A DNA stretch of 64,000 bases, taken from positions 57,412,001 through 57,476,000 of the forward strand of contig OZ024748.1 of assembly GCA_964016885.1 (NCBI GenBank), in the 5' to 3' direction. The first letter of the stretch is position 1. Each line of letters starts with the position of its first letter. This stretch comes from Eledone cirrhosa. Lineage: Eukaryota. The position numbers and the translations under genes were made by a program. The notes under the pieces are model-generated. The model was not told the origin of the DNA, searched no databases, and saw nothing but the letters and a program-made list of their open reading frames with translations. Positions 1 to 29,929 of the stretch are shown here, one piece after another.

Positions 1-227
1 CTTTTCTAGAATATTCTTGACTGAAATGAAAATTAAGAATAACATAAAATGCAGTGAAAGATGATAACATTACATAAATATAGAATATGTTGTTACTATT
101 TGGAAAGATGAAATAGAATTTAAAAAACAAACAGATAAATATTCTTCCAAATAAAAATGACAAAGAAAAAAACATAAAAAATATCTGGCACTTAATATAT
201 ATATTTTTTCTCTCTTTATTTCTGTAG

Positions 228-1305
228 GTATGAAACAGAATCAAGTTTAAATATGCTGTCCAACCTTGTCAACCCACACAAACTATTTATTCAGCTGCTC
301 AAGTCAATGGCCTTTGATCATTGTGTTTTGTTGGATCTACTCACCTCTCCAGAGACTTGCTTTCTATTGTATTTTTTAAAATATCTAAAATTAGTCTCAC
401 AAGAATGGTGTATATTTGTGCAGTTACACAAAGAATACAGTTACGTTGCTGAATACAACACAAGCAATTATTCAAATCTTCTCATAGATGACAGTCATCC
501 TACAAGTTTGAAAGAGGAAACAGAGAAACATGATATGGCTGTATGTCTGAATTCAGCCAGTAAAATTTCATATGAGATGAAAATAAATGCTGAGAAACCT
601 CAGTGTTTCTCACAATTTTCTTTTCACTGTGAATCAAATACCAGTGAGCCAGTCTTTCATAAAAATCAAATCGATTTAAATGAAAGTTCATTATTATCTT
701 GCAACAAACATTTGAATGAAGGAAAAAATGAAAAAATTATAGAACAGAAATCAAGTTTGGGATTATCCTGGATACAGATGTATTCTGACAGTGAAGAAGA
801 ATCAGTTTCTGAGAATAGTAGCCCTAATATTCATACAACATTTGGTGACTATTCTCCCGTCTACAGCAACATTACTCATTCTTATGGTGACTCTTCTGTT
901 CAAAATGTTCATGACATCTCACTACCAGATATTCCAGATAAAAATCAGAACAATGAAATTAAAGAATTCTCTTCTGCCACCACCATTTTAAAATCACATA
1001 CCAGCATCAATACCAATGTACAGAAATCTAACAAAAAGCAAAAAATAGAAAAAGATATCAACAAAACAGGGTGTCAAATAGACCTTGATACAGTGTCCCA
1101 TATAGGTGATAGTACTTCACAGAAACTCAGTGGTGATTGCTCCAATGCTTCAGTTTCTGGGTCAGGTGCTCTTGATCAAACTCTAGGTTGTCTCATTCGA
1201 TTACAGCTTTCTCTAGAGAGATTAAACAGATCAGAAATGTTTCCTTATAATCCAGAAAAACTCATTCAAGCTTTACAGCATTGTATCTTTTTGTATGAAT
1301 CATGA
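228..1305 (+). CDS. LINS1: Terminal coding exon of a protein Lines homolog (LINS1-like); upstream exons lie outside the window
   Basis: Polypyrimidine tract and AG acceptor at 226-227, open frame to TGA at 1303-1305. The motifs NPHKLF..FDHCVLLDLLTSPETCFLLYFLKYLK and CLIRLQLSLERL..FPYNPEKLIQAL match the Lines N-domain end and C-domain, separated by a low-complexity Ser/Glu/Asn linker. Confidence 0.85.
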
Positions 1306-2955: not shown

Positions 2956-3500
2956 AATTATTGTGTACAGTGGGAATATCATGTGTAGTGTTGGTGAATT
3001 TCAGGAAGCATGGAGGTTACAAAGAATGCAGTGTCCCAACAGCTAACAACTGATGCATGTAGTTTGTTCTATGCTTCAGCAACTCTGAGCATGAAAAAAT
3101 GTTTCCGAAAGTCATAGGAGCTATGCTGTTTTCTGACTTTGTAGGCATGCCCACTCATGGTAGACACAAAGGTGTTCTGGGTTGTTGTTGGCAAGATGGT
3201 TAATAATTTTGTGGGTGTTTACCAAGTCAGTTGCCGGTCGTCGGAGCTTCAATGTATCCATGCCCAAGGAAGCAAGGCATTCAGAGTATGGTAGATGCCT
3301 GATGGAGGGTATTTGCTTGGTTGCACGTCTCTGAACAGTTTCCAGGAGGTCAATATTCTGAGCAAGATAGAATTTGTATCATCAGCCTGTAACCCCTAAG
3401 TGTGGCCGTACTATAGTCATATACAGCTTTGAATAGATAGCTGGGGAGTGGCTGACAAAGGTCTTGCTGCATGATGCCAAGACACCCTCGGCCTTCTTGA
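2921..3500 (-). pseudogene. 3' end of a CR1/L2-type LINE with an (ATT)n tail
   Basis: Minus strand reads HSSYDFRKHFFMLRVAEA*NKL, like the RxxFFSxRVVxxWNxLP terminus of CR1-group ORF2, followed by a simple-repeat tail. Confidence 0.65.
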
Positions 3501-3519
3501 CATTATATATATATATATA

Positions 3520-3731
3520 ATTAATAGAAATAGTCCATAGGATGAGTTAAATATAATTAATTAAAACAGTGACATATACAGGTACTTAAGCTTCCTTGGG
3601 TTATATATTCCAACTCATTCAGCCTGTTATATAAAAAGAAATGTTCTTTTTATATAACAGGCTGAAGGAGCTGGGGTATATAACCCAACGAAACTTAAGT
3701 ACCTGTATATAACACTGTTGTAACTAATTAT
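3520..3731. mobile_element. TA-embedded fold-back element with a hammerhead motif in both arms (family A)
   Basis: Imperfect inverted arms about 3565-3640 and 3644-3719, flanked by (TA)n; homologous to 51881-52070. Confidence 0.75.
3657..3706 (+). ncRNA. Minimal type-I hammerhead-like motif
   Basis: acagg CTGAAGGA gctggg..cccaac GAAAC ttaa GTA cctgt: stem I acagg/cctgt, palindromic stem III ACTTAAGT; the core has one extra nucleotide. Confidence 0.7.
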
Positions 3732-3749
3732 ATATATCATCATCCTCAT

Positions 3750-6700
3750 CAGGCATGTCAAACTGAGGGTCTCCCAAAGGCCACATGGGTCACATACGTT
3801 TCTGAGGGCCACACATGACAACTAATTGCGCACATCATCATCATCGTTTAACGTCCATTTTCCACTCTAGCATCGGTCTGGACGGGAATTGTCCCACTTG
3901 AGGCAAGATTGGTTGTCTTGCTCAGGACTGTCTGGCGGGTTTTCTACAGCTGGATGCCCTTCCTAACACCAACCACGTTTACAGTGTGGACTGGGAGGTT
4001 TTTACCGTGTTACCTACACGGCCACATTACAGCGTGGACTGTGTGTTTTTTTGTCGTGACACCTACACGACCTCCTTTATTTAGGACTGGATGTTGTGGT
4101 ACCAACATAGCTTTACATCGAAAGGGGTGGTGTAGATGGGGGTAGGGTTAGTGGGACGGGGGTGTATTTTGGTTAAGAGGTGCCTACTGACTGTAGGTTT
4201 CGCTTTGTACTTAGGCAAGGCGGGTCTTCTGTATTACTACATAGTGCCAAAGATCTTGGTCCAGTGACATTGTCTTGGAGAGATGTAAGTGTGTGGGGTC
4301 GGATTTTATCAAGTCGTCCCAGGTTTTTCTGGGTCTGCCTACTCTGTAGCTACCGTCTATTTTGATCGCCCTGCACTTTTTTATACAGCTGTCATCTTTC
4401 ATGCGCATCACGTGACCATACCAACATAGTCTTCTCTCGAGTAAACAGCATCTGATCCCCCTTATTCCTAATTTCTCACTTAGTTCATTTATGCTTTGCC
4501 GTTCGTGTATATTACTATTACACATTCAATGGAGCATGCAAGCTTCGTTCCTCTCCAGTCTGCTTAGATCCTCTGCACACAGGGACTATGTCTCACTGCG
4601 ATGTAACATCGCTGTTCGTATGCAGGCATTATACAACCTGCCTTTTATTTTTAGAGAGAAACCTTTAGCGGCCAATAGTGGTATAAGCTCTCTGAACTTT
4701 TTCCATCCCGTTCGGACTCTAGCACTTCAGTACTTTCGGAGCATCCTCCACCACTGCTGATTTTGTCACCCAGGTAACAGAAGGTGTCCACTATTTCTAT
4801 AGAACCATCTGGGCCATGGAATGAGCTAGTATTCTGTGGGCATTTGCTGCTACTTATTGCACCAGAGCACCGGCCACATATAAAATCTATATTCTTAGTT
4901 ACCTTACCTGTGATCCCACTACATCTTCTTTGCACCCATACTTTGCATTTGGGACATAAAATGGAGTTTCTGCCTACTCCTTTCCTACACACTGAGAATG
5001 GCCATTTCCCAGATGGGACCAGTGCCCTATTCTCCTTCCTACATATTAGGACTTTAGTCTTAGACAAGTTAACAGTAAGGCGTTTTGATTCTAGGCCATG
5101 CTTCCATGTTTGGAATTTCTTCTCTAGTTCAGCCATTGATTCGGCTATGAGCGTTAGATCATCTGCATATAGAAGTTCCCATGGGCAGCCGGTCTTGAAC
5201 TCCTCCGTTATAGCTTGGAGGGCGATAATAAATAGGAGGGGGCTAAGGACGGAGCCCTGATGAACACCAACTTTTACGTTAAATTCTTCACTATATTCGT
5301 TGTTAATTCTAAACTTGCTGACTGTTTCTTTATACATGGCTTGTATAGCTCTCACAAGTCATTCATCTACACCTAGTTTTCTAAGAGCCCACCAGATAAT
5401 GGAGTGGGGGACTCTGTCAAAGGCTTTCTCCAGGTCTACAAAAGCTAAGTAGAGGGGTTTACTTTTTGCTAGGTACTTCTCCTGTAGTTGTCATACAATG
5501 AAAAGAGCGTCTGTGGTCCTTTTACCTGACACAAACCCAAACTGCATTTCGTCTAGATCAATTCGATCTCTGATTAGTTAAGCTATTACTTTTTCTGTGA
5601 CCTTCATGACCTGGTCAATTAATTTAATGCCTCTATAGTTTCCACCATCTAGGGTGTCTCCTTTACCCTTGTAGCAGTTACTGATGATGCTGCTACGCCA
5701 GTCCTTTGGTACGACCCCATTCTGTATAACTTGGTTTACTATCCGGGTGACCATAGTGTGTCCCACCATTCCAGATGCTTTCAGCATTTCAGCAACTATT
5801 TCCGAAGGCCCAGCCGCCTTGCTCATCTTCATATCTTTGATTGCCTTACTTATTATACTACCTTCAACTTGCACTGCTGGTCCCTCTATTGGATCGATGT
5901 GGGGGAGGCTGTCTTTCTCCCATTTATTCTCCTCATTTAGTAGCCTTTTGTAGTGACACTTCCAAGCTACCTTCTTATCAGTGTCATTGATGGCAAGTAC
6001 ACCATCATCATTTCGGACACACTTCTCCCCGGCAATATCACGGTTCTCTTTGACACATTGTCTAGCAATCCTGAACACCTCATGTTTTTGGTCCTCGCGT
6101 TGTAGAACATGCTTGAACTTTCTTTCCTCTGCTTCCCTTCTTGCGAAGTACACGTCTCCTAGCTTCCCCCCTGGCCACTTGATAGTCTTCTCTACTTCCC
6201 CCATCCCGCCATACTTTCCAAGCCTGCTTTTTGGCCTTGATCGACTCCTCCACCTTACTGTTCCACCACCAAGTTACTCTCCTCCTGCCTATAGGTCTGC
6301 TCCAGCCACAGATTTCATCTGTCACCTTCAGCAGGTTAGCTTTCAGGAATTCCCACTGTTCCTCTATACTGTACGACTCTAATTGCTCTTCCTTACTGTC
6401 AAAAGCATCAAGTAATATACTTTTAAATTTATTACTGGCTGTGGGGTCCTTTAACTTCCATATTTTTCTCCTAAGGATAGTCCTCCTCTGTTGTTGAATA
6501 CGTCTCCTGACTATGAGGTCACTAACTATGAGGCTATGTTGGGAGGTGCATTTTTCATGGGGGAGGGATTTAGTGTTTACAACAGACACTCTGTCTCATC
6601 TTCTGGTAAGGATATAATCTATCTGACTGGTGTGTTCCCCTGATCTATAGGTGATCAAGTGATTGTTTCGTTTTTTGAAGTTTGTGTTACAGATAGTTAG

Positions 6701-9660: not shown

Positions 9661-9662
<2 letters not shown>
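9497..9662 (+). pseudogene. Non-LTR reverse transcriptase fragment
   Basis: [32 protein letters not shown]; ends at the TA array. Confidence 0.75.
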
Positions 9663-10810
<1,148 letters not shown>

Positions 10811-11446
10811 ATTTCGTTTCTGAATTTGTTTAGCAAGATTCTTTATGTGAAATCGTGTGTTGAAACCGATATTGTTATACTTTGGGAGGGTCATGTTGCC
10901 AAATAGAACACAAGAGTAAATTAGAGAACATAGAAATAAAAATAGAATCTACACACAGAAAAGACGCAATGTTTAGACAAATTACAGAGGCAATAAACAT
11001 AAAAGAATTACAACCAAAATTAAATAGAAAATATGAGTGGAACAGCAACATCACAACTTACAATTAAGGACAAAATGAAAACACACACACACATAGAACA
11101 AACAACCAACCAGTAACATGTAAATAAACAAATAAATAAATGAACATAAACACACACAGACACCCGGATGTGGCGCATGCGCAGACTGAGCACACAACAC
11201 ACACACAGAAACAAAATGGCGTAGGACAGAACAAAGGAGAGGCACAGAAACAAAGAAAGGAATCCCCAGTCACTGAAGAGGTCACAGAGTGTGTGACGAA
11301 AGAACTATGACTATATATAAACAACTATCTGGTTGTGGAACCAACCAACCAACCAGAAATTTATAAATATATAATAAATTGAAGTGAAAGCAACTGGTGC
11401 GTGTGTTTCTTACTGGCAACATGACCCTCCGAAAGTATAACAATAT
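10811..11446 (+). mobile_element. Penelope-like retroelement 3' fragment (GIY-YIG C-terminus + pLTR with hammerhead) with an inverted 3' segment at its 5' junction
   Basis: Peptide [37 protein letters not shown] resembles the PLE endonuclease end (R.I.EAI.I....P.LN). Hammerhead at 11268-11312. 33-bp inverted repeat 10869-10901 / 11414-11446 (1 mismatch). TA arrays on both sides. Confidence 0.85.
11268..11312 (+). ncRNA. Minimal type-I hammerhead ribozyme motif
   Basis: agtca CTGAAGA g gtcaca gagtg tgtgac GAAAG aa CTA tgact: stem I 5 bp, stem II 6 bp, 2-bp stem III. Confidence 0.8.
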
Positions 11447-11732
11447 ATATGTATATATATATATATATATGTATGTATATATATATGTATATATATATAT
11501 ATATGTGTATATATATATATGTATATATATATATATGTGTATATATATATATGTATATATATATGTATATATATATATGTATATATATATATGTATATAT
11601 ATATGTATATATATATATGTATATATATATATATGTATATATATATATGTATATTTATATATATGTATATTTATATTTATGTATATTTATATATATGTAT
11701 ATTTATATATGTATATATATATGTATATATAT
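11447..11732. repeat. (TA)nTG array
   Basis: Directly visible. Confidence 0.97.
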
Positions 11733-12823: not shown

Positions 12824-13262
12824 GTAGAGGTTATATTTAATTTGTTGGGATACAACAAGCAAAATATTTTTATAACTGATATAAAGCACTCAACAAATTA
12901 TTGGAGTAAATATACAATATATTAACAAATGGAAACTATATTTATAAAACCATATTTATTTCATTATACATATTTCAAGGGCCACCAAGGCAGATTATGG
13001 TGCGCTTTCATCAGATAAAATCTAATATAGATTAGTTTTATAAATAAATAAATATTGACATACCCTGAAAAAATGCAACCTTCACGGTTTGAGTCAGGAG
13101 AATCCAACCGTGAAGGTTGCATTTTTTCAGGGTATGTCAATATTTATTTATAAAACTAATCTATATTATATTTTATCTGATGAGAGCGCACCATAATCTG
13201 CCTTGGTGGCCCTTGAAATATGTATAATGAAATAAATATGGTTTCCATTTGTTAATATATTG
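12824..13262. mobile_element. TA-embedded fold-back element with hammerheads in both arms (family B)
   Basis: Arms about 12915-13089 and 13106-13262, 16-nt spacer, unpaired 3' tail 12824-12914; homologous to 41977-42238. Confidence 0.85.
13169..13234 (+). ncRNA. Type-I hammerhead motif (mirror copy on the minus strand about 12955-13022)
   Basis: tattttat CTGATGA gagcgcacca taatctgcct tggtggccctt GAAATA tg TATA atgaaata. Confidence 0.75.
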
Positions 13263-29559: not shown

Positions 29560-29566
<7 letters not shown>

Positions 29567-29929
29567 AAAGAAAAACCAACACAGATATATACATTTATGT
29601 GTTCAAATCGTAAGGGACCAGATTGGTGAAAAGAATACTAACTATAGACAATTAGGTTTGCTTGTCTCAATTTAAGAAAAAAATCAAAATAAATACAAAC
29701 CGGAATTGTGGCAACTACCATCACCCAGACAACTTGGTGTTGTTTCGCAATGTTAATTGTGAATAGAATTACCAATTCAAGCTCATCATCACGATTTGAA
29801 CACATAAATGTATATATCTGTGTTCGTTTTTCTTTTTCTTTTATAATATACGGCTCGGAAATATCTCTTTCTTAGAGCTATTTTGTTGTAAGAGACTATT
29901 TTGAGTTCCTAACTCAATATATACCTCTG

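What the first reader, a model, noticed from the sequence alone, without database searches (positions are those of the whole stretch)
10811..11446. Key copy: Penelope endonuclease tail + hammerhead + inverted 3' end between two TA arrays
Seen: RQITEAINIKELQPKLNRKYEW then a stop, a 3' region containing GCGCATGCGC, a hammerhead at 11268-11312, and a 91-bp inverted piece (10811-10901) whose inner 33 bp duplicate the right end. It has the same layout as the non-coding hairpins but keeps coding sequence, so it ties the whole class to an endonuclease-containing PLE (inference).
Basis: partly seen in the sequence, partly recalled or inferred. Interest (0 to 1): 0.75.

Follow-up and report, generated by a model that had tools for sequence, protein, structure and literature searches.

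The report
Two-ended Penelope copy, telomerase-like enzyme
This is a short, mirror-armed leftover of a very abundant Penelope-type jumping gene; its sister copies suggest that both arms are likely copied from one RNA molecule, and the family's copying enzyme carries an unusually long insert at a spot where telomerase has one.

Summary
Observation confirmed; interpretation partly supported. 10811-11446 is a 5'-truncated, head-to-head copy of a young, very high-copy Penelope-like element (PLE) with a C-terminal GIY-YIG endonuclease, inserted in (TA)n. The inverted piece is the natural continuation, the known optional PLE 'tail' (58 nt), and carries the first 28 codons of the ORF. This layout is in print. 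The copy does not tie the window's other hairpins to this family: four tested belong to four other PLE families, each with its own endonuclease. Family-level results: 47 of 47 classifiable inverted insertions have one tailed and one untailed end; the tailed arm is shorter in 17 of 45. Three sister loci carry ADAR-type A>G hypermutation on the sense strand, shared by both arms, one confirmed in an independent run. This favours priming of both target ends on one sense RNA. The scan already noted such ADAR fossils and two-ended copies on other DNA. Not found in the papers read: the RT has 128 residues between motifs A and B' (57-60 in other C-terminal-endonuclease PLEs, about 115 in human TERT), conserved in 119 of 120 homologues, with a Nematis-type linker.

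The parts
9661..10812 (.). Left (TA)n-type target array
10811..10868 (-). 58-nt PLE 'tail' (between the short and the long 3' end), on the inverted arm only; codes for residues about 9-28 of the ORF
10869..10901 (-). Inverted duplicate of the last 33 nt before the short end; holds the ORF start codon (ATG at 10894, minus strand)
10896..10908 (.). Head-to-head junction with short imperfect microhomology; the same junction occurs at G000:C5:85.25 Mb
10903..11067 (+). Last 54 codons and stop of the GIY-YIG endonuclease (second CCHH His, catalytic E and N)
11068..11267 (+). AC-rich 3' untranslated part of the pseudo-LTR
   Evidence: family alignment
11173..11182 (.). Palindrome GCGCATGCGC, intact in 135 of the 158 copies listed; resembles an NRF-1/Ewg site (recalled); possible promoter element, untested
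11268..11312 (+). Minimal type I hammerhead motif; predicted cut after 11307; cleavage untested
11421..11446 (+). ORF start (ATG 11421) inside the pseudo-LTR and short 3' end at 11446
11443..11732 (.). Right (TA)n-type target array

Best explanation
This is a truncated, non-autonomous copy of a Penelope-like retrotransposon sitting in a TA microsatellite, and its two mirror arms were likely made by priming reverse transcription from both cut ends of the target on the same sense RNA. Shown: family identity, intact RT plus GIY-YIG ORFs in sister copies, two fixed 3' ends 58 nt apart, TA targeting, one tailed and one untailed end per inverted insertion. Inferred: the element's protein (probably a dimer) nicks both strands of (TA)n; one 3'-OH starts cDNA at the long end of the RNA, the other at the short end 58 nt upstream; both cDNAs run towards the RNA's 5' end, the first displacing the second over the shared stretch; here they stopped after 91 and about 546 nt and were joined by microhomology. 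The hammerhead is carried along and was not cut in the template, since copies run through it.
For: Family: 40 of 40 scored DNA candidates match at 93-100% over 91-636; 23,570 first-look candidates for the 55-aa peptide, 150 of 150 scored match. Natural ORFs of 898 and 900 aa end in this peptide; their endonuclease hits Pfam GIY-YIG (E 1.4e-4, 22.5 bits, just under the cut-off); the model (pLDDT 92) matches telomerase RT best (Z 14.6, rmsd 3.6, 364 aligned) and I-TevI GIY-YIG for residues 607-704 (Z 10.2, rmsd 2.1, 88 aligned). The window peptide scores 37 bits against a profile of 119 outside homologues, best of 500 shuffles 14. Ends: of 217 3' ends, 104 long, 88 short, 25 unclassified; 176 of the 192 classified run into TA, 10 long ends into the next tandem unit. 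Of 62 head-to-head junctions 45 are long+short, 2 long+long (tandems whose outer end is short), 0 short+short, 15 unclassifiable; the tailed arm is longer in 17, shorter in 17, equal in 11. A shorter tailed arm, as here, cannot come from fold-back of one cDNA. Three loci carry sense-strand A>G hypermutation against their nearest copy: L111 102 A>G and 0 other changes, L063 33 and 3, L112 29 and 2; the two arms differ at 0 of 1008, 3 of 1048 and 4 of 330 columns, whereas ordinary pairs share 24 and do not share 183 rare variants, so arms are not homogenised after insertion. PMC11167929 shows in vitro that a PLE protein nicks and extends both strands of AT-rich DNA and starts at two internal RNA sites that bound the tail.
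Against: The window copy itself has no edits (0 A>G), so the one-RNA evidence comes from sister loci. In the three edited loci the arms are of near-equal length or part of a tandem, which fold-back of one cDNA also explains. Two further candidates (L113, L170) failed against their nearest copy. The edited copies were sought with A>G-rich queries, so 0 T>C-rich copies among 322 alignments (loci overlap) does not exclude antisense templates; an earlier scan note (e1-9106339, unchecked) reports the opposite strand in another genome. A copy on C5 has the same junction without shared unique flanks, so this unit may have been re-copied whole or the junction is a hot spot. No RNA reads of the host were available.
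Confidence: 0.72

Rival explanations
1. One cDNA primed at the long end folds back on itself and copies part of itself; copies with a shorter tailed arm, like this one, arise by later deletion or by template switching during second-strand synthesis.
For: 11 of 45 pairs have equal arms and junctions often show short palindromes or filler copied from nearby sequence; it explains shared edits in L111, L112 and L063 equally well; self-priming is proposed in PMC3846280 (passages).
Against: It predicts the tailed arm to be the longer; observed 17 longer, 17 shorter, 11 equal. It does not explain why the other end stops at one fixed site 58 nt inside, which matches the second RT start site shown in PMC11167929.
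Confidence: 0.15
2. The unit is itself a mobile non-autonomous hairpin: a read-through RNA of one such locus is copied whole from the short end through the junction into the TA array.
For: G000:C5:85.25 Mb has the same junction and ends, 14 substitutions and one indel apart, with only TA arrays alike in the flanks.
Against: Only 1 of the 39 other scored matches covers the junction; both breakpoints recur with other partners (3424-3428 and 3968-3971 in unit coordinates; partly favoured by my queries); it moves the origin of the junction back one step without explaining it.
Confidence: 0.1
3. Inverted copies are made by self-priming on an antisense transcript (PMC3846280).
For: Proposed in print to explain head-to-head arrangement and intron retention; scan note e1-9106339 reports opposite-strand edits elsewhere (unchecked).
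Against: In the three clean edited loci both arms show A>G on the sense strand and 0 T>C against the nearest copy; an edited antisense template would give T>C.
Confidence: 0.05
4. Assembly or sequencing artefact (fold-back reads, polishing errors).
For: Long TA arrays and inverted repeats are hard to assemble (general knowledge).
Against: Arms end at two fixed sites with different flanks; an independent run holds a contig over 10811-10898 and many fold-back joints and a 353-nt single-copy contig identical to the edited L111 arm across 50 A>G sites.
Confidence: 0.02

Closest known systems
Canonical endonuclease-bearing PLEs with inverted pseudo-LTR and optional tail (Pen2a_Av, PMC3846280, passages read; overview in PMC8557442, parts 1-3 of 10, section 11, passages, supplement parts 53-55 read)
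   Same: RT plus C-terminal GIY-YIG, partial tandems, inverted 5'-truncated arm, tail at one end only, ORF starting inside the pseudo-LTR and running through the tail, (TA)n targets.
   Different: Tail 58 nt rather than 30-40; RT motif A to B' spacing 128 aa rather than 57-60 (my count on their Fig. S1).
Nematis clade PLEs (PMC8557442 Fig. S2)
   Same: Linker C-x4-CxxC-x7-C, the same spacing as Nematis_C4; CCHH motif; similar H-A-K-x-x-H stretch.
   Different: Nematis RTs shown have about 60 residues between motifs A and B'; DKG is DKS here; no tree with named members could be built.
Poseidon PAc of the green anole (PMC11167929, parts 1-2 of 4 and passages read)
   Same: Two RT start sites bounding the tail, both strands of AT-rich DNA nicked and extended, hammerhead cleavage not needed for insertion.
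   Different: That paper does not pair one start site with each strand on one RNA (words 'inverted' and 'twin' found only in methods); Poseidon lacks the zinc-finger linker.
Minimal type I hammerheads of metazoan PLEs (PMC4209133, passages read)
   Same: Type I core, bulged base before G10.1-C11.1, 6-bp helix II, 2-bp helix III, place in the pseudo-LTR.
   Different: Positions 15.2-16.2 (GAAC, variant GGAC) are not palindromic, so the dimer fold would be imperfect.
LINE-1 twin priming (recalled, not read) and A>G-hypermutated avian retroviral genomes (recalled; named in earlier scan notes)
   Same: Two primers from the two target ends on one RNA; ADAR-type changes fixed by reverse transcription.
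   Different: L1 inversions do not duplicate the 3' end and have no fixed second start site; here the edits are in germline transposon copies.
Naiad/Chlamys PLEs and telomerase RT (insertion in fingers)
   Same: Long stretch between RT motifs A and B' (Naiad up to about 84, one Chlamys about 119, human TERT about 115; my counts).
   Different: Endonuclease is C-terminal and a canonical hammerhead is present; the predicted insert is short helices and loops, with no shown homology to the telomerase insert.

Membership tests
Endonuclease-bearing Penelope-like elements | Telomerase-related RT in one ORF with a GIY-YIG endonuclease | tested here: met
   (sister copies; the window copy keeps only the last 54 codons)
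Endonuclease-bearing Penelope-like elements | CCHH motif and catalytic R, H, E, N in the endonuclease | tested here: met
   97-100% conserved in 120 homologues
Endonuclease-bearing Penelope-like elements | Pseudo-LTRs: partial tandems, inverted 5'-truncated arm, optional tail at one end | tested here: met
Endonuclease-bearing Penelope-like elements | Hammerhead motif in the pseudo-LTR | tested here: met
Nematis clade | CX2-5CxxC linker with short spacer before the GIY motif | tested here: met
   C-x4-CxxC-x7-C, commonest pattern (61 of the homologues matched)
Nematis clade | RT without insertion in fingers | tested here: not met
   128 aa between motifs A and B', 126-135 in all 119 rows that have both anchors, against about 60
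Nematis clade | RT groups with named Nematis members in a tree | not testable with these tools
   no named reference proteins could be brought into a tree
Neptune clade | CX2-5CxxC linker with long (about 25 aa) spacer | tested here: not met
   spacer is 7 aa
Naiad/Chlamys | N-terminal endonuclease, no canonical hammerhead | tested here: not met
   endonuclease is C-terminal, hammerhead present
Hydra clade | CxCX5C linker, no CCHH, DKT motif | tested here: not met
   this family has CCHH and DKS; window families at 12947, 55601, 57377 do show the Hydra linker
Penelope/Poseidon clade | No zinc-finger linker between RT and endonuclease | tested here: not met
   linker cysteines 100% conserved
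Minimal type I hammerhead | Core CUGANGA/GAAA/UH with helices I and II and bulge before G10.1 | tested here: met
Minimal type I hammerhead | Palindromic 15.2-16.2 and loop 3 for dimer formation | tested here: not met
   GAAC (128 hits) or GGAC (23 hits)
Minimal type I hammerhead | Self-cleavage | not testable with these tools
   needs an assay; the family is too young for covariation
ADAR hyper-editing signature (sister loci) | Clustered, strand-specific A>G | tested here: met
   102/0, 33/3, 29/2 A>G versus other changes
ADAR hyper-editing signature (sister loci) | 3' G favoured, 5' G disfavoured (preference recalled) | tested here: inconclusive
   3' G 47 of 94 edited against 23-33% for other bases (p 7e-5); 5' G 21 of 98 and 5' C 23 of 108 against 34-42% for U and A (5' G p 0.015): right direction, 5' G not lower than 5' C; four loci pooled, one of them (L170) unconfirmed
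Telomerase-type insertion in fingers | Structural homology of the insert to the TERT insert | tested here: inconclusive
   same position and size; whole-model matches give ranges only; the insert folded alone gave pLDDT 35

The most novel reading that the evidence does not exclude
The copy belongs to an undescribed, widespread marine-animal PLE lineage that joins a Nematis-type C-terminal endonuclease to an RT with a conserved telomerase-sized insertion in the fingers. It is amplifying now in this octopus-like genome, primes both target ends at two fixed sites on one sense RNA, and writes the host's ADAR edits into germline DNA, sparing the last 140 nt that the protein must recognise.
Probability: 0.35. 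Interest if true: 0.72.

Novelty: new variant of a known kind. Interest (0 to 1): 0.48.

Why it matters
The copy itself is ordinary debris. The family makes two open points testable. First, how PLEs build inverted, tailed insertions and whether the template is sense or antisense RNA was left open in PMC3846280 and PMC11167929; the strict one-long-one-short rule and the edit marks give sharp predictions for the existing in vitro system, and the edit-free last 140 nt point to the RNA site the protein binds. Second, a long fingers insertion was reported for telomerases, N-terminal-endonuclease PLEs and some Coprina (PMC8557442); a C-terminal-endonuclease lineage with a longer, conserved one bears on whether it was gained several times, and intact young ORFs are at hand.

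Tried and rejected
Rfam: no hammerhead model matched 10800-11460; the whole-window list was swamped by TA repeats. Pfam on the 55-aa peptide alone: nothing. First guess Naiad, then Neptune: rejected by domain order and linker spacing. Hyper-editing candidates L113 and L170 passed the majority-based filter but not the nearest-copy test and were dropped; L085, L086, L091, L098, L102 looked like subfamily variation. Sharing of rare variants between arms of ordinary pairs is low (24 shared, 183 not) and gives no positive support by itself. The two RNA runs were metatranscriptome contigs covering only fragments, useless for expression, ends or editing. The edited arm was seen in run X3 but not in X4 (same sample), X6 or X8, and only over 353 of 1071 nt. 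Sequence search of solved structures gave only weak RT hits. Single-sequence fold of the insert failed. The Atlas search with the O. vulgaris homologue returned unnamed PLE-like clusters, no clade name. A first, strict hammerhead pattern printed nothing. Literature searches for ADAR-edited retrotransposon copies fixed in genomes, twin priming in PLEs, octopus PLE hammerheads and fingers insertions in PLEs gave no matching report in the listings; the library lacks Repbase and the 2005-2006 PLE reviews, so absence is weak. About six further window hairpins were not tested.

Full report
Observation. The frame from 10900 reads to a TAA at 11065-11067, eight residues after the quoted W. GCGCATGCGC lies at 11173-11182. 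The hammerhead has helix I at 11268-11272/11308-11312, the core at 11273-11279, a bulged G, a 6-bp helix II and a 2-bp helix III. Its folding energy is not unusual (z -1.1) and Rfam misses it, but only three sites in the window pass a core-plus-helices filter. 10869-10901 mirrors 11414-11446 at 32 of 33 bases. TA arrays flank both sides.

The family. The window lies on G000:C8 of a 3.0-Gb genome. All 40 scored DNA candidates (of 1607) match bases 91-636 of the query at 93-100%, and the peptide has 23,570 first-look candidates, 150 of 150 scored matching; these are not copy numbers. At least 25 copies score identically over a 401-nt stretch, so amplification is recent. Natural ORFs of 898 and 900 aa end in the window peptide, a 1167-aa open frame exists, and a tandem copy gives 1180 aa from the true start with an internal in-frame deletion. 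The endonuclease part hits Pfam GIY-YIG just under the cut-off. A model from a 102-row alignment (pLDDT 92) matches telomerase RTs best and I-TevI for the last domain. The window peptide scores 37 bits against a profile of 119 outside homologues, the best of 500 shuffles 14. The best named homologue is from Octopus vulgaris (69%), another from a sea cucumber; most are unnamed environmental sequences. The host is therefore probably an octopus (inference).

The inverted piece. The reverse complement of 10811-10868 directly follows the short end in 10 of the 30 best matches. In 125 merged regions, 217 3' ends fall into two classes 58 nt apart: 104 long, 88 short, 25 unclassified; 176 of the 192 classified run into TA and 10 long ends run into the first base of the next tandem unit. 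The ORF starts inside the pseudo-LTR (ATG at 11421 on the right arm, 10894 on the left arm) and runs through the tail into the next unit. This is the optional PLE tail and the ORF-in-pLTR arrangement described in PMC3846280 (passages) and PMC8557442.

The claim about the whole class. No other part of the window matches this copy, though the window holds about a dozen TA-flanked hairpins. Four were followed into the genome. The 12947 family leads, through shared upstream sequence, to a Hydra-type endonuclease ORF on the same strand in 8 of 20 loci. The 57377 family has one 0.8-1.4 kb upstream in 5 of 25 loci. The 55601 family has an 832-aa Hydra-type ORF in 4.2-kb tandems. The 18766 family has an RT and GIY-YIG ORF. 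So the hairpins tested are PLE ends with the same one-sided tail, but of four other families; this copy ties only its own.

Mechanism. Of 62 head-to-head junctions, 45 pair a long with a short end, two pair long with long but are tandems whose outer end is short, none pairs short with short, and 15 could not be classified; 47 of 47 mixed outer ends would have p about 1e-14 under free choice. 39 of the 45 have TA on both sides. The tailed arm reaches further 5' in 17, less far in 17 (this copy among them) and equally far in 11. Fold-back of a single cDNA can only give a tailed arm that is the longer one, so a shorter tailed arm needs two priming events or a later deletion. PMC11167929 (parts 1-2 of 4) shows that a PLE protein nicks and extends both strands and starts at two internal RNA sites that bound the tail; pairing one site with each target end on one RNA is my inference.

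Edit marks. Locus L063, fetched for its ORF, showed heavy A>G change in its upstream pseudo-LTR and in the inverted arm, but not in the full-length unit beside them. Searches with edited stretches found more. Against the nearest other copy, L111 has 102 A>G and no other change, L063 33 and 3, L112 29 and 2; L113 and L170 did not hold up and are dropped. The edit sets of the three loci overlap only in part (29/113, 14/53, 17/53). The two arms of each locus differ at 0 of 1008, 3 of 1048 and 4 of 330 columns, and the changes are A>G on the element's sense strand in both arms. Ordinary pairs share 24 rare variants and differ at 183, so arms are not homogenised later. A contig of 353 nt at single-copy depth in an independent run is identical to L111 across 50 edited sites. 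Edited As favour a 3' G and avoid 5' G or C, broadly the ADAR preference as I recall it. No edits fall in the terminal region, 0 of 82 As against 94 of 323 just upstream (p 3e-11); a protected or required protein-binding site is the likely reason (inference). These marks show a sense template in these three events and argue against the antisense model of PMC3846280 for them. Limits: they do not separate twin priming from fold-back; my queries could not find T>C-rich copies equally well (0 among 322 overlapping alignments); the window copy is unedited. I found the pattern before consulting the scan's notes, which already report such fossils in this and other genomes, one with the opposite strand.

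A second copy with the same junction sits on C5, 14 substitutions and one indel away, with only TA arrays alike in the flanks. Either the junction is a hot spot or the small unit was re-copied whole; not resolved.

Classification. The linker C-x4-CxxC-x7-C matches the Nematis spacing in Fig. S2 of PMC8557442, not the long Neptune spacer; CCHH and catalytic residues are 97-100% conserved. The RT departs from all C-terminal-endonuclease examples in Fig. S1: 128 residues from the motif A Asp to the motif B' Gln, 126-135 in the 119 rows of 121 that have both anchors, with conserved C, P, R, G, P, R, W inside. My counts on the printed alignment give 57-60 for Penelope, Poseidon, Nematis and Neptune rows, up to 84 for Naiad, 119 for one Chlamys and 115 for human TERT; the Hydra-type family here has 61. 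That paper reports such insertions for N-terminal-endonuclease PLEs and some Coprina only. The insert is modelled confidently as short helices and loops; homology to the telomerase insert is not shown. One paper search and one scan look-up found no report, but Repbase and older reviews were not available, so the lineage may already be named.

Papers seen: PMC8557442 parts 1-3 of 10, section 11, passages, supplement parts 53-55 and one supplement search; PMC11167929 parts 1-2 of 4 and passages; PMC3846280, PMC4209133, PMC12602865 passages; bioRxiv 10.64898/2026.07.22.740005 part 1 of 5 (its supplements are closed; not needed for a claim). L1 twin priming, ADAR neighbour preference and the NRF-1 motif are recalled.

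Verdict. The value lies in the family: strict pairing of the two ends, inherited edit marks on the sense strand, and an RT with an unusually long fingers insert. Novelty: new variant of a known kind; interest 0.48.

Noticed in passing
L063 (G000:C1:2.088 Mb), L111 (C22:15.916 Mb), L112 (C3:54.532 Mb): Sense-strand A>G hypermutation shared by both inverted arms; the hammerhead core is damaged in these copies; the last 140 nt are spared.
   Followed up: yes
L062:4178-6874, residues 349-477: RT with 128 residues between motifs A and B', conserved in 119 of 120 homologues, in a C-terminal-endonuclease PLE.
   Followed up: partly
window 12824-13244, 55434-56289, 57377-57610 (second copy 25103-25290): One-tailed hairpins of three Hydra-type PLE families; the 55601 family is very young (99-100% identity, 832-aa ORF, 4.2-kb tandems); the 12947 hairpin has a hammerhead in each arm.
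   Followed up: partly
window 18720-19165: Perfect 400-bp palindrome plus 46-nt tail of a fourth young PLE family (DKG motif, 3.1-kb tandem unit).
   Followed up: partly
window 3581-3703, 25392-25491, 25757-25840, 26576-26638, 29566-29836, 42351-42476, 42503-42957: Further hairpins, several next to TA arrays; probably ends of other PLE families.
   Followed up: no
L076 (G000:C5:85.25 Mb): Copy with the same junction as the finding and no shared unique flank.
   Followed up: partly
unit coordinates about 3066-3073, 3174-3187 and 3424-3428 of the family: 5' truncation points cluster; the equal-arm insertions often sit at these clusters.
   Followed up: no
L113:4285 ORF, residues about 150-370: Long Asn/Thr/His-rich low-complexity insert in the N-terminal part of the ORF, like the N-rich inserts of rotifer PLEs.
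   Followed up: no
window 196-1305: Last exon of a Lines homologue (Pfam LINES_N and LINES_C); the finding lies about 9.5 kb downstream.
   Followed up: partly
window 4651-6273 (minus), 59259-61297, 42962-50955: A broken RTE-like non-LTR element (by eye), a 24-nt tandem array of 85 copies with long open frames, and an 8-kb TA-type array.
   Followed up: no
L238, L261, L002, L024, L032, L077 flanks: Fragments of a related, about 65-72% identical sister PLE family with the same RT insert.
   Followed up: no
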